A DNA stretch of 50,828 bases from a phage. Under the pieces are notes generated by a model that saw nothing but the letters and a program-made list of their open reading frames with translations, did not search any database and was not told the DNA's origin. Location: the sequence record PZ452605.1. One strand, written 5' to 3'. Below are positions 9,980-46,884 of the stretch, one piece after another. The stretch's first letter is position 1. Every line of letters starts with the position of its first letter. Position numbers and translations under genes: made by a program.

Positions 9980-10297
9980 ATGGCAAAGATGAAACTAACG
10001 TTAGGCCCACTGCCTGATTTTAAGCTGCCTGTTTCTTTCGTGCTTCCAAATGGTGATGAGCAAGTTATTGTTTTTACCGTGCGCCACAAGAAGGCAAGCG
10101 AAATTCACGAACGATACACGGCAGAAAAGCCGATGAGCGACGTAGAAATGATCACCTTCCTTGCTTCCGGTTGGGATTTGGAAGATGAATTTAACGAGGA
10201 AAACGTTGCTAAATTGCTGGATTATTACCCGTCTGCGTCATTATCGCTGACTGGTCATTATATGAAAGCACTTGCGGGGCAGCGGGTAAAAAACTAA
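9980..10297 (+). CDS. tail assembly chaperone (G-like)
   Basis: about 105 aa directly upstream of tape measure; AAGGAG RBS; ends just after slippery heptamer. Confidence 0.6.
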   Translation: MAKMKLTLGPLPDFKLPVSFVLPNGDEQVIVFTVRHKKASEIHERYTAEKPMSDVEMITFLASGWDLEDEFNEENVAKLLDYYPSASLSLTGHYMKALAGQRVKN

Positions 10298-10614
10298 AGC
10301 GGGCGGTTTACCTGTTTTACCTCAAGCCGCCAACTGACGCACAATTAGAGGCCGTCGGCCTATCCCGTTCAGACTACGAAGGGGAGGATCCGCCGGAGGT
10401 AATTTTTGATGAATCAATGTTTCAATCTTGGGATCTGTTTTGCGCTATGCAGACGCAATGGAGATCGACTAGCGGCAGTGTGTATGGGTTCGACTATAAC
10501 GTTTTGCCTATGCTTTTTGACATTTACAAGATTGAGGATCGGGAGATGGCGCTAAATGATTTGCGCATCATGGAACAAAAGGCGCTAGAAATGATTCATT
10601 CAAACAAAACATAA
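9980..10614 (+). CDS. tail assembly chaperone G-T fusion (via -1 frameshift)
   Basis: -1 frame has no stops between slippery site and ORF 10417..10614; conserved G/GT arrangement upstream of tape measure. Confidence 0.5.
10288..10294 (+). promoter_or_regulatory. -1 programmed ribosomal frameshift slippery heptamer A_AAA_AAC
   Basis: heptamer in zero frame 3 nt before G stop; -1 frame open from 10285 through 10614. Confidence 0.55.
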
Positions 10615-10635
10615 GCGCCGCGAGGCGCTTTTTTA
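10613..10635 (+). terminator. terminator-like hairpin
   Basis: GCGCC-GCGA-GGCGC then T6. Confidence 0.45.
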
Positions 10636-10653
10636 ATATCTGGAGGTTTTAAA

Positions 10654-13335
10654 ATGGCTGAAAAATACGCTAGCCTAACGCTAGGCGTTGACGTGTCGCA
10701 GGTCAACAATGCTGTTAAATCATTGCAGCAATTCAAGAAGGCAAACGACGACGCAAAAAAAAGCGTTAATGAATTTGTTGATTCTGAGGTTGTGGCGCGA
10801 CAGCAAGCAAAACAGTTTGCCGAAGAACTGGCGCGCCAGAAAGCAGAATTTAAGAAAATCCAGGAGTCAATTGATCCCACCGCGTCAAAGATGGATAAGC
10901 TGCGAAAGGCAGCGACACAGCTTGATGCGCTATGGAAAAAGGGCATTGTTCCTGATGAGACTTTTTTTGAGCTTGGGGCAATTCTTGAGACACAGCAAAA
11001 CAAGCTGATCGCAACCAAAAAAGCGATGACAGAGGAAGGACGCGCGGCACTTGAGGAATCAAAGAACAAAGCGCGTGCAGCGGAAGAGGCTAAAAAATTC
11101 GTCCAGGCTTTGCGTGAGCAGGAAGAAGCAGCCGGAAAAAGCAAGTCTGAATTGCTGGAAATGAAAGCGGCACAGCTTGGTGTTAGCCAGGAGGCAGCGC
11201 CTTACATCGCAAGGCTGAAAGAGCAGGAAAAGCAGATCCAAAAACTTGGAATTTCTACGGGTCAATACAAACAAGCAATGGCGCAATTGCCAATGCAGAT
11301 CACAGACGTGGTGACTTCACTTGCTTCTGGAATGCCTGTTTGGTTGGTCGCAATCCAGCAGGGCGGACAGATTAAGGATTCTTTTGGTGGCGCATCCAAT
11401 GCTTTAAAAGCGTTGCTATCTTTCCTGAATCCGGCAAACGTGGCGTTTGGCTTACTTTCAGGCACGCTGGCAATTGCTGCATATAATGCCTACAAAACAC
11501 AGACAGAGTTTGAGGCAATTAAAAAAACCGTTCAGGAAACAACTGGCTTGACTGGTGATTTTGCCGAAAAGATTGCTACCGGAATACAGGAGCTTTCCGA
11601 CAAGACAGGCGAAAGCGCCGAAGATCTTGCAAAGGCTTACATCACCACGAAAGACGGCGCGAGCGAGGCGATTAAAAAACTTGTTGACGTTGGCATGACT
11701 TATGATGACGCAAAAAAGAAAGTCAACGAGTACAAGGGCGCGTCTAGCTTTGTCAGCTTGAATAACGAAATTGCAAACCACAAAAACAAAGTCCTTGAGT
11801 TGGGCGATTCGTGGTATGAGGTTTTGAAAGCGAAGCGTGATTACGCTTCCCCGTCCGGCGGCCTGTTAGGTAAGGAGCTTGGCTATGTTAACCCTATGCT
11901 TAAGTTTGCACTTAACACTTATGAAGACATTGGAAAGGTCGTAAAAGATGCGAATAAGGACATGGCGGAACGAGCGGAAAGGATCGACAAAGAAAACCTG
12001 GCCTTAAACAGAGTGCGCGCAGCACAGGAGGCTTTAAACAAAGCCATTGAGGATCAGAAAAATGTGGCGCGTTCGGCTGATGAAGAACTGAAAAAGCGCG
12101 CGGCTGAAAACGTGGAGTTTAGGCGCAAAGAGCTTGAGGAAATCAAGAAGCAGGAGCAGAAAAAGAAAGAGGCTAAAGGTGGAATAGTTCGCGGCCCGAC
12201 TGAGCAGCTTGATAAAGAGTTGTACGTTTTAAAAGCGCAACTGGAGATGCTTAAAGAGCATCGCACTGTTAACGATGTTATTTCTCGCCAGCGTAAATCA
12301 TTATGGAGTATCGAAAAGCAGATCGAGATCCTGGAGGATGCGCAGAGCAAGCGTAAATTGACCGGAGCGGAACAGGCGCTACTAAACGAGCAAAAAGCCG
12401 TTCTTGAAATGGCAAGGCAAAAAGCGGAGCTAGGGGATCAGATTGTTTTACAGGAGCGCAAAAACAAGCTGGAGCAAGATAGCATTAAGTTTATCCGTGA
12501 AACTCAGGCGGCTATTGATGTGCTTGGCCTTAAGCAACTTGGCTACACTGAAAAGCAGATCGAGCGTGAGCTAGAGTTGCGCAAGCTGCGCACCGACTAC
12601 GAGGCGCAAGGCGGAAGCGTTAGCGATGAAGTTTTTCAGCAAATGGAGGCGAAACTTAAGCAGTATTATCAGACACAGGATGAGGTTCAAGGCAACTGGT
12701 TGGCAGGAGCAAAAAACGCATGGGAGATGTTCGCGGAAGATGCAAACAATGCCTATGGCAATGTTCAGCAGATCGCAAGCGAGGCGTTAAACGGCCTTAC
12801 AAACCAATTAGCGAATTTTATCGCTACTGGCAAGGCAAACTTTAAAGACTTCTCGACGGCTATCATCAAAATGATTATTCAGATGATCACGAAAATGGTC
12901 GTCTTTAATGCGTTATCTGGCCTGATGGGTGGTCAAACCTGGACGATGGGGAGCTTGCTTAAGAATATTGGCGGATTTGCTGGCGGTGGATACACTGGAG
13001 ACGGCGGGAAGTATGAGCCAGCCGGAATTGTCCATAAAGGTGAATTTGTCATGACGAAGGAGGCGACGCAGCGTATCGGGGTAGGAAACTTGTACCGCAT
13101 GATGCGAGGCTATGCTAACGGTGGCGCGGTTGGTAGTTCCGGCTATACTGGCGGTGGAGCTGTCACTGGTGGAGCGCCTCAATTTAACATTGGGGGGATT
13201 GATGTTAGCATCACTAACGGAAACGATCCGAAGGGCATCGAAACTGGTGTTAAGATGATTTTTACTGATATGATTAAACGTTCCTGTATGCAGGGCGGCG
13301 AGGTTTACGAATTTGTTATGAGCAAGCGAGGTTGA
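10654..13335 (+). CDS. tail tape measure protein
   Basis: 893 aa, long alpha-helical K/E/A/Q-rich protein with Gly-rich C-terminal part; after G/GT. Confidence 0.85.
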   Translation: MAEKYASLTLGVDVSQVNNAVKSLQQFKKANDDAKKSVNEFVDSEVVARQQAKQFAEELARQKAEFKKIQESIDPTASKMDKLRKAATQLDALWKKGIVPDETFFELGAILETQQNKLIATKKAMTEEGRAALEESKNKARAAEEAKKFVQALREQEEAAGKSKSELLEMKAAQLGVSQEAAPYIARLKEQEKQIQKLGISTGQYKQAMAQLPMQITDVVTSLASGMPVWLVAIQQGGQIKDSFGGASNALKALLSFLNPANVAFGLLSGTLAIAAYNAYKTQTEFEAIKKTVQETTGLTGDFAEKIATGIQELSDKTGESAEDLAKAYITTKDGASEAIKKLVDVGMTYDDAKKKVNEYKGASSFVSLNNEIANHKNKVLELGDSWYEVLKAKRDYASPSGGLLGKELGYVNPMLKFALNTYEDIGKVVKDANKDMAERAERIDKENLALNRVRAAQEALNKAIEDQKNVARSADEELKKRAAENVEFRRKELEEIKKQEQKKKEAKGGIVRGPTEQLDKELYVLKAQLEMLKEHRTVNDVISRQRKSLWSIEKQIEILEDAQSKRKLTGAEQALLNEQKAVLEMARQKAELGDQIVLQERKNKLEQDSIKFIRETQAAIDVLGLKQLGYTEKQIERELELRKLRTDYEAQGGSVSDEVFQQMEAKLKQYYQTQDEVQGNWLAGAKNAWEMFAEDANNAYGNVQQIASEALNGLTNQLANFIATGKANFKDFSTAIIKMIIQMITKMVVFNALSGLMGGQTWTMGSLLKNIGGFAGGGYTGDGGKYEPAGIVHKGEFVMTKEATQRIGVGNLYRMMRGYANGGAVGSSGYTGGGAVTGGAPQFNIGGIDVSITNGNDPKGIETGVKMIFTDMIKRSCMQGGEVYEFVMSKRG

Positions 13336-28404: not shown

Positions 28405-30402
28405 ATGATTCCAAATATCGAAAAACAAATATCAGCGTTAGGCGAGGCAGTAATAAAAAGCATCCAAGAGCGATTCACGGTTGGCAATATAGTGCCTTAT
28501 CCTTATCAGTGCGTTGCGTATGCCGAGATCGCAAAGCGCATGAAAAACTATGAGCATCCTTTCTTTGTTAAGGCTTCTGTGTCGGCTGGCAAAACATTGA
28601 TGTTTGCGATGGTTGCGGCGCAATGCCGCAAAATGGGATTGAAAATGATGGTCCTTGCTCGCCAGGCTGAAATTGTTGATCAGGATTCGGAAGAGATCAG
28701 CAATCTTGGAGTGCCAAACTCAATCTATTGCGCCGGACTGAAAACAAAAAGCGCATACTTTCCGATCGTGGTCGGTTCTGAGGGCACTGTAGTAAACGGA
28801 TTGTTTAAGTCGTTAGGTGATTATGTTCCGCACGTTATCGGTATTGATGAATGTCACCAGGTGGATTGGGAGGATCTCGCGGACGCGATAGAAAATAATG
28901 AATCTTACCAGCAGATGACCACTAAGAAGGATTTGCCAGTACTGATTGGAGAAGAACAGCAATTTGATTCCAATGGCGATCCAATGTTCGGAACAGGACG
29001 CACACAGTACACCGTAATAATCATGGAAATGATGCGCAGGTGTCGCGAGGCATACGGGCACGAATTGCGAATATTCGGTATGACTGGATCTGAATTTCGC
29101 GGCGTGGTTCCAATACTGGTTGAAGATAAGAACAAAAAGGGATTCTGGCGTGAGCAGGTGACTAACATAGACACAAACTACTTAATCAAATTCGGTTCGG
29201 TAGTGCCAACAAACTTCGGCGACGTAGGCGACCTGGGTTATGACCTTTCAGAGTTCGAAGCCAGTAGCGAGGATGGCGTTTCAGACTTTGACGCTAAAAC
29301 ATTGCGCAAGATGGAAGAAAAGATCCATCAAGACGCAACAATGACACAGAAAATCATGGCTAAAGTCCATGAGATATGCAAAGACAGGAACGGAGTTTTA
29401 GTTACATGCGCAGGGGAAAGGCACTGCAAGGAGGCCGCCGCCGCACTGCCGCCAGGCGTTGAATACAGGATCATAACTGGCAAGACTGGAGATAATCAGC
29501 GTAAAGAGTGGCTGAGGGAGGCATGCGAGGGAAAAGTAAAATACATCTTCCAGGTACAGGCGCTTACCACTGGCGTTAACGTTCCGTTTTGGGATACTTC
29601 GGTAATACTGAGAAAGATAGGATCTCTAACATTGCTTATCCAGCTTTTGGGGCGCGGCATGCGACTGCTTAAGCAATGGCACATTGAGCAGGGATTCAAG
29701 AAAAAAGATCATCTTGTATTGGATTTTGCAGGTACTATGGATGAGTTAGGTGATTTGTATTTCGATCCAATCCTTGAGCAAGCGCAATTCCAAAAGAGAT
29801 TTACAAACGGGAAAGAGCCTAAGACTTGTCCGATATGTGGAACGCTAAACAGCTTTTACGCTCGCCGATGTATGCACGTAGACGATAACGGGAAGCGATG
29901 TGAGCATTTTTGGACTTACAGAATTTGCGAGGACCAGGTAGATCCGAGAACGAAAAAGATAATCAAGCGCGGTTGCGGAACAAAAAACGACGTAGTGGCG
30001 AGAGTATGCCGTTGTTGCGATATTTCTCTTGTCGATCCTAACGAGAAGTTAAGCGGTAAGCACTACACCAAAAACGATTGGTGCAACGTTAAATCTTTCC
30101 GCGTTGATATGACGAAAAACCAGAAAGGAATTATTTTTTGCTATGAGCTTGAGGCCAACGGCGACACGTTCAAGGCATACGAAAGATTTTTCCCTGAGTC
30201 AGAAAGCAACATTTGCCGGACGATATGGAGAAAAATAGCATTGCAGCACATACCGGATCGCAAGATTGCTGGTATGGTGGCGAGCTATAGAAATGCTCGT
30301 AAAATAATGTCATACGCTCATCACATCATGCCGCCTGTACGCGTAACGCATCGCAAAAACGGCAAAGGTGAGGATAACATTGCAAAACGGGAGTTTGTTT
30401 AA
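28405..30402 (+). CDS. SF2 DEAD/DEAH-type DNA helicase
   Basis: 665 aa; Walker A SAGKT, motif II IDECHQ, C-terminal CxxC zinc-finger cluster. Confidence 0.7.
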   Translation: MIPNIEKQISALGEAVIKSIQERFTVGNIVPYPYQCVAYAEIAKRMKNYEHPFFVKASVSAGKTLMFAMVAAQCRKMGLKMMVLARQAEIVDQDSEEISNLGVPNSIYCAGLKTKSAYFPIVVGSEGTVVNGLFKSLGDYVPHVIGIDECHQVDWEDLADAIENNESYQQMTTKKDLPVLIGEEQQFDSNGDPMFGTGRTQYTVIIMEMMRRCREAYGHELRIFGMTGSEFRGVVPILVEDKNKKGFWREQVTNIDTNYLIKFGSVVPTNFGDVGDLGYDLSEFEASSEDGVSDFDAKTLRKMEEKIHQDATMTQKIMAKVHEICKDRNGVLVTCAGERHCKEAAAALPPGVEYRIITGKTGDNQRKEWLREACEGKVKYIFQVQALTTGVNVPFWDTSVILRKIGSLTLLIQLLGRGMRLLKQWHIEQGFKKKDHLVLDFAGTMDELGDLYFDPILEQAQFQKRFTNGKEPKTCPICGTLNSFYARRCMHVDDNGKRCEHFWTYRICEDQVDPRTKKIIKRGCGTKNDVVARVCRCCDISLVDPNEKLSGKHYTKNDWCNVKSFRVDMTKNQKGIIFCYELEANGDTFKAYERFFPESESNICRTIWRKIALQHIPDRKIAGMVASYRNARKIMSYAHHIMPPVRVTHRKNGKGEDNIAKREFV

Positions 30403-30821
30403 TGGCTATAACTGATAAAGGAGATTATCTTGAGTTTTACGAAAGAGATCCAACCGACACGAGAAAGGAAGTTAATCACCAGATAGATAGCTTTCAGTGG
30501 TTGACTTATGCTCATCCTTATTTGCTAGCGTGGCATACGGTAAACGAGAATGAGAAGTCGAAAGTAACTGCGATGATTGATCAGCAGTCCGGCTTGGTTA
30601 AGGGGGTAAGCGATTTCATCATCCTGATTGGTTCAAACGGAAAATACCCCTTTGCAGCGATTGAGATCAAACGAGTGAATAAATCAGGCAAGGGGAAAGC
30701 ATCACCAGTCAGCGATGAACAAAAGGCTTTTTTGCGTCGCGTTCGCAGCTTAGGAGGATTCGCTGCGGTCGCCTACGGATTTAATCAGTTTAAGTTAGCT
30801 ATTGAATACATGCTTAAATAG
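30402..30821 (+). CDS. VRR-NUC domain nuclease
   Basis: 139 aa; GVSDFIIL ... AIEIKR PD-(D/E)XK-like core; ATG overlaps helicase stop. Confidence 0.55.
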   Translation: MAITDKGDYLEFYERDPTDTRKEVNHQIDSFQWLTYAHPYLLAWHTVNENEKSKVTAMIDQQSGLVKGVSDFIILIGSNGKYPFAAIEIKRVNKSGKGKASPVSDEQKAFLRRVRSLGGFAAVAYGFNQFKLAIEYMLK

Positions 30822-30837
30822 CACTTTTTGTTAAAAC
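30818..30837 (+). repeat. intergenic motif copy, co-directional
   Basis: exact ATAGCACTTTTTGTTAAAAC containing stop TAG of VRR-NUC gene. Confidence 0.65.
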
Positions 30838-30901
30838 TGGCGCGATGGATTGCGCCATAATTCAATAACACGAGATGGCTTTTAATAGCGGAGAAATGAA
30901 A

Positions 30902-31627
30902 ATGGCTAAAGATATTTTAGATAAAGACACCCATGACGCATTCGTTAGCTTTGAGCAGTTGGAGAGAGAAACGTTTATAGGAAATGCTCTTGCAACTGGA
31001 GGCCATTACCAGGCAGTAAAGCCAAATCAATATTATAAGGTAAGCGGCAACCGATACGCTGGAAGCACTACGCCGGACGTTGTGCGCGATATGTGGAGCA
31101 CGCCTCAAGAGATCGTGGAGTGGATGGAATCAGAATTTGGTGAATACGATCTCGACGCGGCAGCAAGCCAGGAAAACGCAGTTTGCGAGAAGTTCTACAG
31201 CAAGGAAACAAATTGCTTAAAGCGTTGGTGGGGTAGCAACAAGCACGTATGGCTTAACCCGCCGTACAGCAACCCAACTCCATTTATCAAGAAAGCAATT
31301 GAGCAAATGGAGCACAACAACCAAATTGATGTTTTGTTGCCATCCGACAACTCTACAGCATGGTTTTATGAGGCGCAGAAAAACGCGGCTGAAATCATCT
31401 GGATCACTGGCGAGGTTTGCGAAGAGGGTGGAGTAGAATACTCCCGCACAGGAAGAATCGCCTTTGTGTCTGGATTGACTGGCGAGCCTGTACAGGGCAA
31501 CAACAAGGGAAGCGTGATTTTTGTCATGCGCAAACTTAAAGAAGGAGAGGAGCAGAAAACGCGATACGTTAAGATCAGCGATATTTGCCCCTCTGTAACC
31601 GAACGCCGCGCGCGCAAACGGAGCTAA
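30902..31627 (+). CDS. dam: DNA N6-adenine methyltransferase (phage Dam type)
   Basis: DLDAAAS and NPPYS motifs; GGAG RBS 8 nt before ATG. Confidence 0.75.
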   Translation: MAKDILDKDTHDAFVSFEQLERETFIGNALATGGHYQAVKPNQYYKVSGNRYAGSTTPDVVRDMWSTPQEIVEWMESEFGEYDLDAAASQENAVCEKFYSKETNCLKRWWGSNKHVWLNPPYSNPTPFIKKAIEQMEHNNQIDVLLPSDNSTAWFYEAQKNAAEIIWITGEVCEEGGVEYSRTGRIAFVSGLTGEPVQGNNKGSVIFVMRKLKEGEEQKTRYVKISDICPSVTERRARKRS

Positions 31628-31631
31628 CACG

Positions 31632-31889
31632 ATGAAAAAAGAGAGAAGCGTTTATTTAAATGAAACTGGCGAGTGGTTGTTATTTCGCGCTATGGTGTGC
31701 GATGCACTTGATAAAAACCCTAACGTGAAAAAGATGATTGATTGCGATCCGTGGGAATTTTCAAGCGCATTAGATATGAGCTTTGATGAGACAAGAAAAC
31801 TCCCTCTTGAAAAATGGCACGAACAAATCAGAAATGATATGCAAGAGTTTGTAGATTCGTGGAATTTTCAGAACGGAATGATCCACTAA
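31632..31889 (+). CDS. hypothetical protein
   Basis: 85-aa ORF; stop followed by intergenic motif. Confidence 0.4.
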   Translation: MKKERSVYLNETGEWLLFRAMVCDALDKNPNVKKMIDCDPWEFSSALDMSFDETRKLPLEKWHEQIRNDMQEFVDSWNFQNGMIH

Positions 31890-31908
31890 TAGCACTTTTT
31901 GTTAAAAC
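31889..31908 (+). repeat. intergenic motif copy, co-directional
   Basis: exact 20-mer directly after stop TAA; followed by hairpin, CATAAT and CATCGAAACGAAC. Confidence 0.65.
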
Positions 31909-31964
31909 GCCCGGCATTTTGTCGGGCATAATTATTTCATCGAAACGAACGTGAGGAAATGAAA

Positions 31965-32144
31965 ATGGTAGTATATAGCAAGAAAGCATTTGACAAGGCG
32001 CAACAAGCCGCACGCGAGGCGGTAAAAGGTGGAACGAAAAACAATATGCAGCTTGATTGGGGCGCTGCAATGATTCTACTTCGCGTTGCATATGGTCACT
32101 ACCCATTAGAATTTGCGGAGGCATATTATAAGCATGAAGGTTGA
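31965..32144 (+). CDS. hypothetical protein
   Basis: 59 aa from second ATG with GAGG RBS. Confidence 0.3.
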   Translation: MVVYSKKAFDKAQQAAREAVKGGTKNNMQLDWGAAMILLRVAYGHYPLEFAEAYYKHEG

Positions 32145-32376
32145 ACAAGGTAGAGAGGCGGTATGGAATCACGCTAAAGAATGCGGAATAGCCGACGATA
32201 TAAAGAAGATCGCGCAATACTTTGATATTGCAGATGTGAGCATAATTAGCGGCGATAAGATGACTTTCCTCAAGGAAAGGCCGCGAAAAATGGTAAGAGC
32301 TCCAGCAGTTCCAACAAAAATTGATTTCAAAGAGGCAATGGCTAAAATCCGAGAGCCTCGCAAATATTATAAATGA
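32134..32376 (+). CDS. hypothetical protein
   Basis: 80 aa; ATG overlaps upstream stop region. Confidence 0.3.
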   Translation: MKVEQGREAVWNHAKECGIADDIKKIAQYFDIADVSIISGDKMTFLKERPRKMVRAPAVPTKIDFKEAMAKIREPRKYYK

Positions 32377-32470
32377 GGATAGTTATCATGTGGCGCTTGT
32401 TTGTTCTACCGTTACCCGTTATCATCGCTGTTACAGTTATGTACCATATAGTGATGAGATAGGTAGCAGA

Positions 32471-33586
32471 ATGAAAAATGTAAAAATTACAGATGAGCAA
32501 TTCAAGATCGAACGGGCGGCGGGTAAGACATATAAACAGATCGCTCAAGAGTACGGAATGAATGTGAGAAGCGTCGAGCGTCGCGCGGCGCGACTTGCAA
32601 AGCAAGGCCAGGTATCCACCATTGGAGCGCCTGGTTTTGGCGTTCATGGTGAGTCAGTAATGACTGACAAAGAAGGCAACATAATCCTAAAGTGGACTAA
32701 AACCAGCAAGGATAAAGAGCAATTAGAAGCATTAATGCGCGCAGCAATGGAGGCATTTAGCGAGGAAGTGCCGCGATTAGATCCGGTTCCATTACAGGAG
32801 CGCGACTATAACGAAACGCTTTCCTTGTATCCGATCTTTGACATGCACTTAGGCGCTATGGCCCATAAGCACGAATGCGGCGAAAATTGGGATACTGCCA
32901 CGGCAGAGCGCGTTATGAATAACTTTATCGACTATGCTTTAATGTGCGCACCGGATAGCGAAAAGGCTGTCATCCTGATTGGTGGCGATATGCTGCATAG
33001 CGACGGCCTGGAGGCGGTTACACCTGCAAGCGGTCACGTACTGGATCAAGATAGTCGATATGCAAAATTGGTTTACGTTGCCATCCGTGCAATGCGACGC
33101 GCAATCAATAAAATGTTGTTAAAGCATAAACATGTTGAAGTCCAGATCGTAGAGGGCAATCATGACCAATCAGGAATGATTTGGCTGCGCGCAGCAATGG
33201 CGGCAGCATATGAAAACGAGCCGCGCGTTTACGTTGATGTTTCACCTCGCGTTGTGCACCACACGCAATACGGAAAAACTTTCCTTGCGTACCATCACGG
33301 GCACACAGTGCGTAAACCGGAGACTTTGCTAATGATGTGCGCGTCAGATTGGCGGGAGGACTTCGGAAACTCAAAAACGATGTATGCGCACGTAGGGCAC
33401 TGGCATCACCAGACCGTGACAGAAACGTCGCTTGGCATCGTTGAGGTGCATAGCACCCTGGCGGCAAAAGACGCATACGCCGCGCGCGGTGGCTGGAGAT
33501 CTCGACGCCGTGCGGCGGTTATCATTTACGACAAAGAGCATGGAGAGGTGGGGCGATTTGTTCACTATCCAGAAATGATGAATTGA
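32471..33586 (+). CDS. calcineurin-like metallophosphoesterase with N-terminal HTH
   Basis: GDMLHSD, GNHD and GHWHH phosphoesterase motifs; N-terminal KQIAQEYGMNVRSVERR helix-turn-helix. Confidence 0.6.
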   Translation: MKNVKITDEQFKIERAAGKTYKQIAQEYGMNVRSVERRAARLAKQGQVSTIGAPGFGVHGESVMTDKEGNIILKWTKTSKDKEQLEALMRAAMEAFSEEVPRLDPVPLQERDYNETLSLYPIFDMHLGAMAHKHECGENWDTATAERVMNNFIDYALMCAPDSEKAVILIGGDMLHSDGLEAVTPASGHVLDQDSRYAKLVYVAIRAMRRAINKMLLKHKHVEVQIVEGNHDQSGMIWLRAAMAAAYENEPRVYVDVSPRVVHHTQYGKTFLAYHHGHTVRKPETLLMMCASDWREDFGNSKTMYAHVGHWHHQTVTETSLGIVEVHSTLAAKDAYAARGGWRSRRRAAVIIYDKEHGEVGRFVHYPEMMN

Positions 33587-33732
33587 TGAATTTTTATTTA
33601 AATCAATGACAAATTAAATCAAAAACTTGCAAGGGGGCGGCGTTTGTCGCCTCTTTTTTTTGTTTAATTTTTTTACCATGTACGTTTATCATGCTGTCAA
33701 TATATTGACTTTAATTAATATGGAGAATAAAA

Positions 33733-33948
33733 ATGAAAGATTTTATTAACGCAGCTACCGCCGGATCTGGCGGTTCATCTATCGCAAGCGCCGCTACAGG
33801 GCAGTTAACCATTGCTATTGCCAGCTTTGTTTTAATGGCTGCATTCGGTGCATGGGGCGCTTACCTTCGCTGGCGTGATAGTAAAAAATTCCACGAGGCG
33901 ATCGAAAAAGGTGATATTCAAAAAGCTATTGAAATCAGGGGCAAGTAA
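33733..33948 (+). CDS. holin
   Basis: 71 aa; central hydrophobic helix and charged C-terminus; directly precedes endolysin. Confidence 0.6.
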
Positions 33949-34439
33949 TGAGCATAAAGAACAGGGTAGCGGCGGCGGCCTTTGGCGTTGCGGTTGCCTT
34001 GACTTCTCCACTTCTTGAAGAGATCGAAGGGGTAAGATACAAGCCATACAAAGATATTGCGGGAGTATGGACGGTTTGCGCAGGAATCACCGGACCCGAT
34101 GTTATCCTGGGGAAAACGTACACTAAAAAAGAGTGTGATGCTTTGTTGGCTAAGCATATCCAGGTTGCTAAAAAGGAAGTTGACAAGCAAGTTAAGGTTG
34201 ACATTCCTGATAGTATGCGTGCAGCAATGTACTCATTCACTTACAATGCAGGTGTGGGAGCTTTCAGAAATTCAACAATGCTGAAACTCATCAACCAGGG
34301 GAAATTAAACGAGGCTTGCGATCAGCTTTATCGTTGGACTTATTACCATAACCCAAAAACAGGAAAGCGCGAGAAGTCTAAAGGCTTACTTAACAGGCGC
34401 AAGGTCGAATACAAATATTGCACAATGGATCTGAAATGA
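33948..34439 (+). CDS. SAR endolysin (T4-type lysozyme)
   Basis: Ala/Gly-rich N-terminal signal-anchor-release segment; E-D-T catalytic triad region [16 protein letters not shown]. Confidence 0.75.
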
Positions 34440-34831
34440 TGAAGAAATTTTTAATCGCACCAATCGCAATGGCGGTGATCTTGTCTGGATGTTCAAGCGT
34501 TACGCCACTGACCGGATTAATCGGCAGTAAGCCGGAAATCACAGCACAGGCTGGCGCGGAGAACGTGAAGCAGACAGTTGGCATTACAGCAAAGCAGGAC
34601 TCCAGCACAAAACAGGAAACCACAATAAAGGAATCTGCGGTTGACAAGGTGGACACGTCCATCAAGAAGGATTTCACAACATCAACCATTCAGGCCAATA
34701 CCATCAAGGCAGACAAAATTCAGGTCGTGCAGGGTAATAACGGCAGATGGTACGATCCGGTAATCATATGCGTGGTTGTGTTAATTGTGCTGATTTGTCT
34801 TTACTGGAGAGAAAAGAAAAAGGAGGCTTAA
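34436..34831 (+). CDS. unimolecular spanin (u-spanin)
   Basis: N-terminal lipoprotein signal with lipobox LSGC plus C-terminal transmembrane helix [16 protein letters not shown]; same architecture as T1 gp11. Confidence 0.65.
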
Positions 34832-44875: not shown

Positions 44876-45415
44876 ATGAAAAAATACACTTTCGAACTAT
44901 GGGGCAAGAAATACGAATTAATGACCAGCAAGCCGATTGTTATCGTTGATCTGGATGGCACACTATCGGACGGATCGCATCGTTTGCATTTGCTGCCAAC
45001 TGAAAACTTACACCTTACGGAATCGTGGAGCGAATTTAACAGGGCCGCCGCCGGAGATTCACCGATTAAAAGCACGATCGCGGTTATTAACGGTTTATGG
45101 GTGTCGGGATTTGCCATCGTCATCTTGACCGGACGCAGCGACGAGGTGCGCTATGAAACCTGCAAATGGTTGAATGAGAGCGGCGTGAAGTTTGACGAAA
45201 TCATCATGCGCCGCCAGGAGGACAACCGAAAGGATACGGTTATTAAAGAAGAAGCCTTGCGCGCTATTGGCCTGGACAATATTGTTTGCGCCTTTGACGA
45301 TTCGCCGAACGTGGTTAAGCACTTCCGCAGCCTGGGAATCACAACCTATCAGGTCACGGAATACGACAAGCCACACGCTCACCTGCAATCTCACGGCGTG
45401 GAGTGTTTAAAATGA
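44876..45415 (+). CDS. HAD-superfamily phosphatase (nucleotidase / PNK-phosphatase-like)
   Basis: HAD motif I VIVDLDGTLSD; 179 aa. Confidence 0.6.
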   Translation: MKKYTFELWGKKYELMTSKPIVIVDLDGTLSDGSHRLHLLPTENLHLTESWSEFNRAAAGDSPIKSTIAVINGLWVSGFAIVILTGRSDEVRYETCKWLNESGVKFDEIIMRRQEDNRKDTVIKEEALRAIGLDNIVCAFDDSPNVVKHFRSLGITTYQVTEYDKPHAHLQSHGVECLK

Positions 45416-46293: not shown

Positions 46294-46884
46294 ATGAAGC
46301 GAGACATTATCATCCTTAATGGGCCGCCAGGCTGCGGGAAGGACACTATTGCAGCTTACCTAACGGGCCATCGTTACCCTGCTGTCAAGGCGTCATTCAA
46401 ACAGCCGATGTTCGATATTGCTTTTTCTATGCTGGGCGTGTACCGATACGATGAATTTATGGACATGTACAACGACCGAGAGCAAAAAGAAAAGCCTCAA
46501 GTTATCTTAGGAGGCAAGTCACCTCGACAATTCATGATCTGGATTAGTGAGGATGTAATGAAGCCAGTTTTTGGGGGTCACTATTTCGGGCGTCGAATGG
46601 TTGAAGAGATTCACGAGAGGTACCGAGATTTGGCGGTTGTAATCAGTGATGGCGGATTCCCCGAAGAAATCAAGCCGCTTGTTAAGGCAGGGCATGAAGT
46701 GCATATTTGCCGATTGCATCGCGACGGCTTCACGTTTGCTGGCGATTCGAGAGACTACATTGACCTGAGCGGTTATCACTATCGAATCCATCACTATGAT
46801 TTCCACTTGCAGGAAGGTAAGCCGGAACTGGCTGTAAGCGAGATCGTCAATGCAGTCAAATGGAAGCACACACAGATTAAATAG
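46294..46884 (+). CDS. P-loop kinase (dNMP kinase-like)
   Basis: Walker A LNGPPGCGKDT resembling phage dNMP kinases; 196 aa. Confidence 0.55.
   Translation: MKRDIIILNGPPGCGKDTIAAYLTGHRYPAVKASFKQPMFDIAFSMLGVYRYDEFMDMYNDREQKEKPQVILGGKSPRQFMIWISEDVMKPVFGGHYFGRRMVEEIHERYRDLAVVISDGGFPEEIKPLVKAGHEVHICRLHRDGFTFAGDSRDYIDLSGYHYRIHHYDFHLQEGKPELAVSEIVNAVKWKHTQIK

What the first reader, a model, noticed from the sequence alone, without database searches (positions are those of the whole stretch)
32471..33586. HTH domain fused to a metallophosphoesterase just upstream of lysis genes
An N-terminal helix-turn-helix is followed by a calcineurin-like phosphoesterase core (GDxxHxD, GNHD, GHxH). This could be a DNA-bound phosphatase or nuclease acting in late regulation or DNA-end processing. 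The 95-nt region upstream (32377-32470) has short repeats (GTTATCAT twice).
Basis: partly seen in the sequence, partly recalled or inferred. Interest (0 to 1): 0.5.

Follow-up and report, generated by a model that had tools for sequence, protein, structure and literature searches.

The report
Phage DNA-binding metallophosphoesterase, probable nuclease
This T1-like coliphage gene encodes a DNA-binding helix-turn-helix fused to an intact Mre11/SbcD-like metal-dependent phosphoesterase; it belongs to a very common, already catalogued but never experimentally studied phage family, and is most likely a DNA nuclease of the replication/nucleotide-salvage machinery, not a lysis or late-regulation factor.

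Summary
ORF 32471-33586 (+, 371 aa) has an N-terminal three-helix HTH (residues 8-44), a conserved beta-hairpin plus helix (56-97) and a complete binuclear metallophosphoesterase core (116-371). The window is a Warwickvirus-like Drexlerviridae coliphage. The protein is 100% identical to the "putative phosphoesterase" of phage tunzivis and matches PHROG 704 "DNA repair exonuclease" (E 5e-149).

The gene ends the helicase/VRR-NUC/Dam gene block, and a strong terminator separates it from the holin. Across 54 homologue groups its neighbours are lysis, nucleotide-salvage (Pnk phosphatase, dNMP kinase) and DNA-processing genes.

The "95-nt upstream region with repeats" is really a conserved 24-codon hydrophobic micro-ORF, and the repeat is incidental. 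RefSeq's longer 398-aa start is probably wrong.

Best reading: a DNA-tethered phosphodiesterase or nuclease. I found no experimental study. It is ordinary as a discovery, and the biochemistry is open.

The parts
32471..33586 (+). HTH-metallophosphoesterase gene (371 aa including its ATG; stop 33584-33586)
   Evidence: ORF. PHROG 704 'DNA repair exonuclease' E 5.4e-149 over the full length. 100% identical to the tunzivis 'putative phosphoesterase'. ATG 32471 is the conserved start.
32492..32602 (+). Three-helix HTH DNA-binding domain (residues 8-44; recognition helix 32-44)
32636..32761 (+). Family-specific beta-hairpin (56-80) plus helix (82-97), with near-invariant G69 and W75 ('WVKT' motif)
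   Evidence: AF2 secondary structure. G69 and W75 are at least 90% conserved. Present in 141/141 homologues. Role unknown.
32816..33583 (+). Binuclear metallophosphoesterase catalytic core (residues 116-371): motif I D124/H126, II G172-D173-x-x-H176, III G229-N230-H231-D232, IV H276(-G-H278), V G309-H310-x-H312
33020..33058 (+). Family-specific conserved loop between motifs II and III (T184-P-x-S-G-H-x-L191-D192-x-D194-x-R196)
   Evidence: T184 is invariant; L191, D192 and R196 are at least 90% conserved in 141 sequences. A candidate substrate-recognition element (inference).
32388..32462 (+). Conserved 24-codon hydrophobic micro-ORF (MWRLFVLPLPVIIAVTVMYHIVMR) that fills the 'upstream region'; contains or abuts both GTTATCAT copies
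   Evidence: The reading frame and hydrophobic peptide are conserved in Hanrivervirus, Klebsiella K50 phages, Tlsvirus and (diverged) Webervirus. tblastn finds 142 phage records, and some annotate it as a CDS. GAGGA lies 8 nt upstream of its ATG.
32390..32470 (+). N-terminal extension used in RefSeq (GTG 32390, 398 aa); probably not translated as part of the enzyme
   Evidence: RefSeq tonn CDS is 1197 nt. In four other genera the in-frame extension is closed by a stop 3-21 nt upstream of the ATG. A 5-nt indel breaks the frame. The PHROG and homologue alignments begin at residues 1-5.
33631..33666 (+). Intrinsic terminator (11-bp stem with 6 G-C pairs, then a T-run) between the gene and the holin
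28405..31627 (+). Co-directional upstream genes: SF2 helicase (28405-30402), VRR-NUC nuclease (30402-30821), Dam methyltransferase (30875-31627)
   Evidence: Pfam ResIII/Helicase_C and VRR_NUC. RefSeq annotation of phage tonn.
31632..32376 (+). Three small co-directional ORFs of unknown function (31632-31889, 31959-32144, 32134-32376)
   Evidence: phrog_2676, phrog_2180 and phrog_2817, all 'unknown function'. Annotated as CDS in related phages.
33733..34831 (+). Lysis cassette downstream (holin 33733-33948, endolysin 33948-34439, spanin to 34831); context only, not part of the unit
   Evidence: ORFs. RefSeq annotation of tonn.

Best explanation
The gene encodes a two-module enzyme.

- An N-terminal three-helix HTH of the LuxR / sigma-70 region 4 type binds DNA.
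- A conserved beta-hairpin plus helix connects it to the catalytic domain.
- The C-terminal domain is a binuclear metallophosphoesterase with a complete set of metal ligands. Its fold is closest to the nuclease members of the superfamily: PolD DP1 3'-5' exonuclease, Mre11 and SbcD.

It most likely works as a DNA-tethered, Mn2+/Mg2+-dependent phosphodiesterase, that is an exo- or endonuclease acting on DNA ends. It would do so without a Rad50/SbcC ATPase or a capping domain, with the HTH supplying DNA affinity.

In this phage it is made as the last gene of the helicase/VRR-NUC/Dam block and serves phage DNA metabolism. Two roles are plausible: processing ends or structures during recombination-dependent replication, and breaking down DNA to dNMPs for salvage.

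Shown: the domain architecture, the intact catalytic motifs, the fold neighbours, the operon position, and the spread of the family.

Inferred: DNA as the substrate, nuclease chemistry, and the physiological role.
For: - All metallophosphoesterase metal and catalytic residues are invariant or at least 90% conserved in 141 homologues at 30-86% identity.
- The AF2 model has pLDDT 93.6.
- The HTH fold is confirmed independently and is present in 139/141 homologues. DNA binding is therefore integral to the family's function.
- In the window the gene follows the SF2 helicase, VRR-NUC and Dam genes on the same strand and is followed by a terminator.
- In E. coli lambdoid prophages a 65%-identical homologue sits 18 nt upstream of the DnaB helicase gene in the early-right operon.
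- In an Autographiviridae phage it lies between a T7 gp6-like exonuclease, an annotated endonuclease (EndoVII family by the survey clusters) and Pnk, dNMP kinase and ligase.
- Across 54 homologue groups, the immediate downstream neighbours are Pnk-type phosphatase (8 groups, mostly position +1) and dNMP kinase (7 groups, mostly +2). dNTP diphosphohydrolase lies at -1 in 5 groups. Exonuclease, EndoVII and ligase each occur in 4 groups.
- A different, HTH-less phage metallophosphoesterase (mycobacteriophage A10ZJ24 Gp48) has been shown to have phosphodiesterase activity and to disrupt host DNA (PMC12287305). That shows the chemistry is plausible in phages.
Against: - I found no biochemical or genetic data for this family.
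- Sequence identity to any solved structure is only 12-21%, and there is no sequence-level PDB hit.
- The phage already has a RecE-like exonuclease, ERF, SSB and VRR-NUC, so the need for another nuclease is not obvious.
- Gene context is heterogeneous. Lysis genes are the commonest neighbours (18/54 groups), and terminase genes occur in 6/54.
- A LuxR/sigma-type HTH usually reads specific sequences, which fits a general nuclease less well.
Confidence: 0.55

Rival explanations
1. End-healing phosphoesterase. The domain removes 2',3'-cyclic or 3'-phosphate groups from broken nucleic-acid ends and works together with the phage polynucleotide kinase/phosphatase (and a ligase where present) to repair damaged DNA or cleaved tRNA. 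This would resemble the metallophosphoesterase module of bacterial Pnkp.
For: - A Pnk-type HAD phosphatase gene is the +1 neighbour in 8/54 homologue groups, and DNA ligase lies at +3 in 4/54.
- Examples are Webervirus, Yersinia phage vB_YenM_22, Pseudomonas phage MR4 with ligase and Pantoea phage AAS23.
- The window phage itself encodes Pnk (44876-45415) and dNMP kinase (46294-46884).
Against: - The adjacent Pnk already carries its own HAD 3'-phosphatase domain, which makes a second 3'-end healer redundant.
- In this window Pnk lies 11 kb away.
- The closest folds are nucleases.
- A dsDNA-type HTH is unexpected for tRNA repair.
- No RNA ligase was seen in the surveyed neighbourhoods.
Confidence: 0.15
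2. Regulator or signal-degrading enzyme. The HTH makes it a transcription factor at the early-to-late switch. The phosphoesterase domain would then act as a sensor, or would hydrolyse small nucleotide signals (cyclic oligonucleotides of CBASS, Pycsar or type III CRISPR, or (p)ppGpp/cAMP) as a counter-defence.
For: - The best Pfam and structural matches of the N-terminus are transcription-factor HTHs: sigma-70 region 4 and LuxR/GerE response-regulator domains.
- The gene recurrently lies at the boundary before late genes. Lysis genes are within 5 genes in 18/54 groups, antiterminator Q at +1 in 3/54, and terminase in 6/54.
Against: - A strong terminator separates the gene from the lysis cassette here.
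- No repeated operator-like motif was found: the only local repeat is coding sequence and is not conserved.
- Promoter-like sites are no more frequent than in shuffled sequence.
- There is no match to PADLOC models. PADLOC holds defence-system proteins only, so it does not test counter-defence.
- Boundary position is what any last gene of an early or middle operon would show.
Confidence: 0.1
3. NinI-like Ser/Thr/Tyr protein phosphatase (lambda phosphatase type) that dephosphorylates host or phage proteins.
For: It belongs to the same superfamily. In three homologue groups the gene lies directly upstream of an antiterminator Q gene. From memory, that is the slot lambda ninI occupies.
Against: - The motifs are GDMLH, GNHD and GHWH. 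From my own knowledge the PPP signatures are GDxHG, GDxVDRG and GNHE.
- An HTH has no obvious role in a protein phosphatase.
Confidence: 0.03
4. Non-catalytic scaffold. Like the B-subunits of eukaryotic replicative polymerases, the phosphoesterase fold would serve only as a protein-protein adaptor in the replisome, recruited to DNA by the HTH.
Against: All seven metal ligands and the catalytic His are invariant across 141 diverse homologues. From my own knowledge, inactive B-subunits have lost these residues.
Confidence: 0.03

Closest known systems
PHROG 704 'DNA repair exonuclease' / GenBank 'putative phosphoesterase' of Drexlerviridae (for example phage tunzivis, tonn gp49, AAS23 gp38)
   Same: Full-length match at E 5.4e-149. 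The tunzivis protein is 100% identical. Gene position is the same across Tempevirinae.
   Different: Nothing differs: this is the family it belongs to. The family name is a homology-based label, and I found no experimental work on it.
Mre11 / SbcD nuclease domain (including phage T4 gp47 and T5 D13)
   Different: - 13-21% identity, and no sequence-level hit.
- Only 59 residues follow motif V, so there is no capping domain.
- There is no Rad50/SbcC-like ATPase in the phage.
- It has an N-terminal HTH and hairpin module that Mre11 and SbcD lack.
Archaeal PolD small subunit DP1 (3'-5' proofreading exonuclease)
   Different: 14% identity. No DP2 catalytic partner. No DNA polymerase was seen among the window ORFs examined. 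That DP1's N-terminus is an OB fold rather than an HTH is from my own knowledge.
Mycobacteriophage A10ZJ24 Gp48 metallophosphoesterase (PMC12287305)
   Same: A phage-encoded metallophosphoesterase with demonstrated phosphodiesterase activity that damages host DNA. It is a functional precedent.
   Different: Its motif I starts at D10, so it has no N-terminal HTH module. It belongs to a different phage lineage, and I did not establish homology beyond the superfamily.
Bacterial ligase-associated nuclease MPE / PdeM (P. putida MPE, PDB 6nvo)
   Same: A stand-alone metallophosphoesterase nuclease that works without Rad50. Weak profile hits at motif III.
Lambda NinI (lambda protein phosphatase, PPP family)
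   Same: Same superfamily. It occupies a similar late-early slot near Q in some temperate phages.

Membership tests
Calcineurin-like metallophosphoesterase superfamily | Five motifs that supply the binuclear metal site: DxH, GDxx(D/H), GNH(D/E), H, GHxH | tested here: met
   D124/H126, G172-D173-x-x-H176, G229-N230-H231-D232, H276 and G309-H310-x-H312 are invariant or at least 90% conserved in 141 homologues.
Calcineurin-like metallophosphoesterase superfamily | Alpha/beta sandwich fold shared with solved members | tested here: met
Calcineurin-like metallophosphoesterase superfamily | Pfam PF00149 score above the gathering threshold | tested here: not met
   16.8 bits against a cut-off of 21.5, E 0.0098. 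The family is too divergent for the Pfam model, so membership rests on motifs and fold.
PHROG 704 (phage 'DNA repair exonuclease') | Full-length profile match | tested here: met
   E 5.4e-149; residues 5-370 align to profile positions 3-389 of 390.
Mre11/SbcD nucleases | Nuclease-domain fold and motifs | tested here: met
Mre11/SbcD nucleases | C-terminal capping domain after the phosphoesterase core | tested here: not met
Mre11/SbcD nucleases | Cognate Rad50/SbcC ABC-ATPase encoded alongside | tested here: not met
   Every ORF of 500 aa or more in the window is accounted for: TerL, tape measure, GpJ, tail fibre, SF2 helicase, DUF3987. None appeared among the recurrent neighbour families annotated in the 54-group survey.
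Mre11/SbcD nucleases | Homodimer; Mn2+-dependent 3'-5' exonuclease and ssDNA endonuclease activity | not testable with these tools
   Needs biochemistry or multimer modelling.
PolD DP1 / polymerase B-subunits | Partner catalytic polymerase subunit and an OB-fold N-terminal to the phosphoesterase domain | tested here: not met
   No polymerase gene was seen among the window ORFs examined. The N-terminus is an HTH plus a hairpin.
PPP protein phosphatases (lambda NinI type) | GDxHG, GDxVDRG and GNHE motifs, and close fold similarity | tested here: not met
LuxR/GerE or sigma-70 region 4 type HTH | Three-helix HTH with a recognition helix; profile score above threshold | tested here: inconclusive
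Known anti-phage defence proteins (PADLOC) | Match to any PADLOC model | tested here: not met
   No family at E <= 1.

The most novel reading that the evidence does not exclude
The family could be a new class of Rad50-independent, sequence-directed phage nuclease. The sigma/LuxR-like HTH would target the Mre11-like active site to specific sites on host or phage DNA at the early-to-late transition. That would couple DNA breakdown and dNMP salvage, or genome processing, to the onset of lysis and packaging. It would explain why the gene travels with lysis, terminase and nucleotide-salvage genes in unrelated phage lineages. A further possibility is that it is carried in the virion, as one proteomic detection in phage AAS23 hints.
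Probability: 0.1. Interest if true: 0.6.

Novelty: new member of a known kind. Interest (0 to 1): 0.3.

Why it matters
The family is one of the commonest uncharacterised 'DNA metabolism' genes of tailed phages. It occurs in about 2,000 sequenced phage genomes, including the T1-like, Jersey-like, Dhillon-like and Weber-like phages used in therapy collections. It has 4,616 clusters at 50% identity in metagenomes.

If it is a self-sufficient Mre11-like nuclease that replaces Rad50 and the capping domain with an HTH, it would be a compact model for how this nuclease fold is targeted to DNA. It could also explain host-DNA breakdown and nucleotide salvage in phages that lack their own polymerase.

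Two practical points follow. The RefSeq start codon of this gene is probably wrong in many records, and a conserved micro-ORF upstream is mostly unannotated.

Tried and rejected
- Sequence search of the PDB with the single protein gave nothing relevant. With the family profile it gave only marginal HTH and motif-level hits.
- Pfam on the whole alignment failed because it exceeded the size limit.
- The afdb50 fold library was unavailable.
- The search for related loci with the broad alignments A2 and A3 failed for lack of a conserved 7-10 column stretch. Queries P0180 and P0253 found no IMG/VR relatives. The neighbour survey therefore rests on two sub-lineages plus annotated phage records, and it is not a random sample of the family.
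- Literature searches for functional data found no study of this family. I tried Drexlerviridae plus phosphoesterase, SECphi27 escape mutants, the CRISPRi-ART, HIDEN-SEQ and transposon essentiality papers, and T1 gene 2.5 / host DNA degradation. The Stokar-Avihail escaper screen does not implicate this gene.
- Regulatory direct repeats upstream: rejected.
- A structured RNA in 31500-34000: rejected, no Rfam match.
- A defence-system protein: rejected.
- NinI-like phosphatase: rejected.
- The 398-aa RefSeq gene model: rejected.
- Functional coupling to the lysis cassette in this phage: rejected, because a terminator intervenes.
- The enrichment of lysis genes near homologues (18/54 groups) could not be tested against a whole-genome null. 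It may simply reflect module-boundary position.

Full report
**What the window is.** The region 32300-33700 is 99.0-99.6% identical at the DNA level to Warwickvirus-type T1-like coliphages (tonn, tunzivis, swan01, SECphi27, JLBYU10) of Drexlerviridae, subfamily Tempevirinae. The 371-aa product of 32471-33586 is 100% identical to the "putative phosphoesterase" of phage tunzivis. RefSeq calls it "DNA repair exonuclease".

**Checking the observation.**
- The ORF, its coordinates and the motifs are as described.
- Against 149 representatives of 50%-identity clusters, and in a 141-sequence alignment at 30-86% identity, D124, H126, D173, T184, N230, H231, H276 and H312 are invariant. G172, H176, D178, G229, D232, G277, G309 and H310 are at least 90% conserved. 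The binuclear metal site is therefore complete and under strong selection.
- Pfam sees the domain only weakly: Metallophos E 0.0098, below threshold. It sees the N-terminus as several sub-threshold HTH families at residues 12-48.
- PHROGs gives a full-length match to phrog_704 "DNA repair exonuclease", E 5.4e-149.

**Structure.**
- An AlphaFold2 model built on the 141-sequence alignment has mean pLDDT 93.6.
- It shows helices at 8-16, 21-28 and 32-44 (an HTH), a beta-hairpin at 56-80, a helix at 82-97, a linker, and the phosphoesterase core at 116-371.
- Nucleases are therefore the nearest neighbours, but the margin over other phosphodiesterases is modest.
- The family profile also weakly hits GerE, DesR and RhlR.
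- Only 59 residues follow motif V, so there is no Mre11-type capping domain.
- No Rad50/SbcC-like gene exists in the phage. All ORFs of 500 aa or more are TerL, tape measure, GpJ, tail fibre, SF2 helicase and DUF3987.

**The family.**
- tblastn finds relatives in 2,042 phage records. They include T1-like, Webervirus, Jerseyvirus and Dhillonvirus phages, Vibrio siphophages, N4-like roseophages, a Pseudomonas autographivirus and Campylobacter phages.
- An exhaustive HMMER scan finds 4,616 clusters at 50% identity with E <= 0.001.
- The HTH columns are filled in 139 of 141 homologues, and the hairpin-helix columns in all 141. An HTH-only HMM hits 120 of 149 representatives.
- The "fusion" is thus the ancestral architecture, not a local event.
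- There is no match to PADLOC defence models.
- I found no experimental study of the family.
- The nearest functional precedent is an HTH-less mycobacteriophage metallophosphoesterase, Gp48. It has phosphodiesterase activity and disrupts host DNA (PMC12287305).
- One proteomic study detected the homologue of Pantoea phage AAS23 (gp38) in purified virions (PMC8004638).

**Start codon and the "upstream region".**
- RefSeq starts the gene at GTG 32390, giving 398 aa.
- In Hanrivervirus, Klebsiella K50 phages, Tlsvirus and Webervirus, the in-frame extension is closed by a stop 3-21 nt upstream of the conserved ATG. A 5-nt indel also shifts the frame. ATG 32471 is therefore the real start.
- The 94 nt before it are not non-coding. 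They hold a 24-codon ORF, 32388-32462, encoding MWRLFVLPLPVIIAVTVMYHIVMR, with GAGGA 8 nt upstream of its ATG.
- The frame and the hydrophobic character of that ORF are conserved in those genera. It is found in 142 phage records, and some annotate it.
- The first GTTATCAT ends in its start codon. The second encodes Val-Ile-Ile. In relatives one or both copies carry mismatches. The repeat is incidental.
- No Rfam family matches 31500-34000.

**Context in the window.**
- The gene is the last of a co-directional block: SF2 helicase, VRR-NUC, Dam methyltransferase, three small ORFs of unknown function, then the micro-ORF.
- An 11-bp-stem terminator with a T-run lies at 33631-33666, before the holin at 33733.
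- A weaker terminator-like site lies at 31909-31927.
- Promoter-like sites in the region are no more frequent than in shuffled sequence.

**Context elsewhere.**
- In Webervirus, Pnk and dNMP kinase genes lie between this gene and the holin.
- In Jerseyvirus the gene is in a small reverse-oriented island inside the tail genes, after a superinfection-immunity membrane protein.
- In Dhillonvirus it lies between the lysis genes and the terminase.
- In Pseudomonas phage MR4 the order is exonuclease, endonuclease, this gene, phosphatase, dNMP kinase, ligase.
- In a Yersinia phage it lies between a peptidoglycan hydrolase and Pnk and dNMP kinase.
- In an N4-like roseophage it is among nucleotide-metabolism genes.
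- In E. coli lambdoid prophages a 65%-identical copy sits in the early-right operon, 18 nt upstream of DnaB.

**Neighbour survey.** I surveyed 172 loci, which fall into 54 groups at 70% identity of the enzyme; 43 groups have at least four genes on each side. The counts below are the number of groups with each family within five genes.

| Neighbour family | Groups (of 54) | Usual position |
|---|---|---|
| Phage lysozyme | 13 | +2 to +4 |
| Pnk-type HAD phosphatase | 8 | mostly +1 |
| dNMP kinase | 7 | mostly +2 |
| HNH endonuclease | 5 | |
| dNTP diphosphohydrolase | 5 | -1 |
| DUF3310 | 5 | |
| M15 endolysin | 4 | -1 |
| T7 gp6-like exonuclease | 4 | -2 |
| Endonuclease VII | 4 | -1 |
| DNA ligase | 4 | +3 |
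| Antiterminator Q | 3 | +1 |
| Large terminase (3 clusters) | 6 | |

- Grouped together, lysis genes occur in 18 groups, nucleotide metabolism in 13, DNA processing in 12 and terminase in 6.
- The sample comes from two sub-lineages plus the annotated records, so these are indicative frequencies only.
- The picture is of a gene that sits at the end of the DNA and nucleotide-metabolism module, next to the late genes. Its most specific recurrent partners are nucleotide-salvage and DNA-processing enzymes.
- In the window itself Pnk (44876-45415) and dNMP kinase (46294-46884) are encoded elsewhere.

**Interpretation.**
- The best-supported mechanism is a DNA-tethered, metal-dependent phosphodiesterase acting as a nuclease on DNA. 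The HTH would supply the DNA affinity that Mre11 and SbcD obtain from the capping domain and Rad50/SbcC.
- The architecture, the catalytic residues, the fold neighbours and the genomic position are shown. The substrate, the chemistry and the physiological role are inferred. The candidate roles are end or structure processing in recombination-dependent replication, or DNA breakdown feeding dNMP salvage.
- From memory, and not verified here, T1 degrades host DNA and re-uses its nucleotides, which would fit the salvage version.
- The rivals, in order of my confidence:
  - an end-healing phosphoesterase working with Pnk (0.15);
  - an HTH regulator or small-nucleotide phosphodiesterase (0.10);
  - a NinI-like protein phosphatase (0.03);
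  - a non-catalytic scaffold (0.03).

**Verdict.** The object is a member of an already catalogued, very widespread but biochemically unstudied phage family. It is ordinary as a discovery, and its mechanism remains an open and testable question.

Noticed in passing
window 32388-32462 (+): A conserved 24-codon hydrophobic micro-ORF (MWRLFVLPLPVIIAVTVMYHIVMR) lies directly upstream of the enzyme gene. It is present in several Drexlerviridae genera, is mostly unannotated, and could be a membrane micro-protein or a translational-coupling leader.
   Followed up: partly
window 32390-32470; RefSeq NC_049815 and related records: RefSeq starts the enzyme gene at GTG 32390 (398 aa). This overlaps the micro-ORF in another frame. 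The extension is closed by stop codons in four other genera, so the start is probably mis-annotated.
   Followed up: yes
GenBank MG0656xx 'Campylobacter phage' records (e.g. MG065640 A14b); 'Streptococcus phage MBBL140' (P0050): Fifteen to seventeen records labelled as Campylobacter phages and one labelled as a Streptococcus phage carry sequence related to T1-like coliphages (about 65-96% peptide identity in the listed hits; the MBBL140 enzyme is 77% identical). The host labels look like contamination or mislabelling.
   Followed up: no
homologues: phrog_20703 / phrog_20762; Jk06 JK_64P, Salmonella phage 36, Roseobacter phage RDJL Phi 1, Shigella phage 2019SD1 (P0080): In some phages the gene is split into N- and C-terminal halves or is interrupted. 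An HNH endonuclease gene lies beside it in 5 of 54 homologue groups. This suggests homing-endonuclease or intron-type insertions, or sequencing errors.
   Followed up: no
window, 8 sites (3235, 3744, 7349, 9663, 24710, 32382, 32418, 33518): The octamer GTTATCAT occurs 8 times against 1.7 expected from shuffles. At least three copies are in-frame Val-Ile codons, so codon usage is the likely cause. This was not examined further.
   Followed up: partly
L009/L010 (E. coli prophages), 10001-11119: A 65%-identical homologue sits in a lambdoid early-right operon between an ANT/Bro antirepressor gene and a DnaB-type helicase gene, with a gap of 18 nt. A Lin1244_N replication protein gene lies upstream and NinB downstream.
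   Followed up: partly
Pantoea phage AAS23 gp38 (PMC8004638): LC-MS/MS detected the homologous phosphoesterase in purified virions. It could be virion-associated or a contaminant.
   Followed up: no
L005 5759-5938 (Jerseyvirus): In Jersey-like Salmonella phages the gene lies in a reverse-oriented island inside the tail module. A 59-aa, apparently two-transmembrane protein annotated as a superinfection-immunity protein precedes it.
   Followed up: no
window 31909-31927 (+): A second terminator-like hairpin (8 bp, 6 G-C pairs) follows the 85-aa ORF 31632-31889. It may subdivide the helicase-to-phosphoesterase gene block.
   Followed up: no
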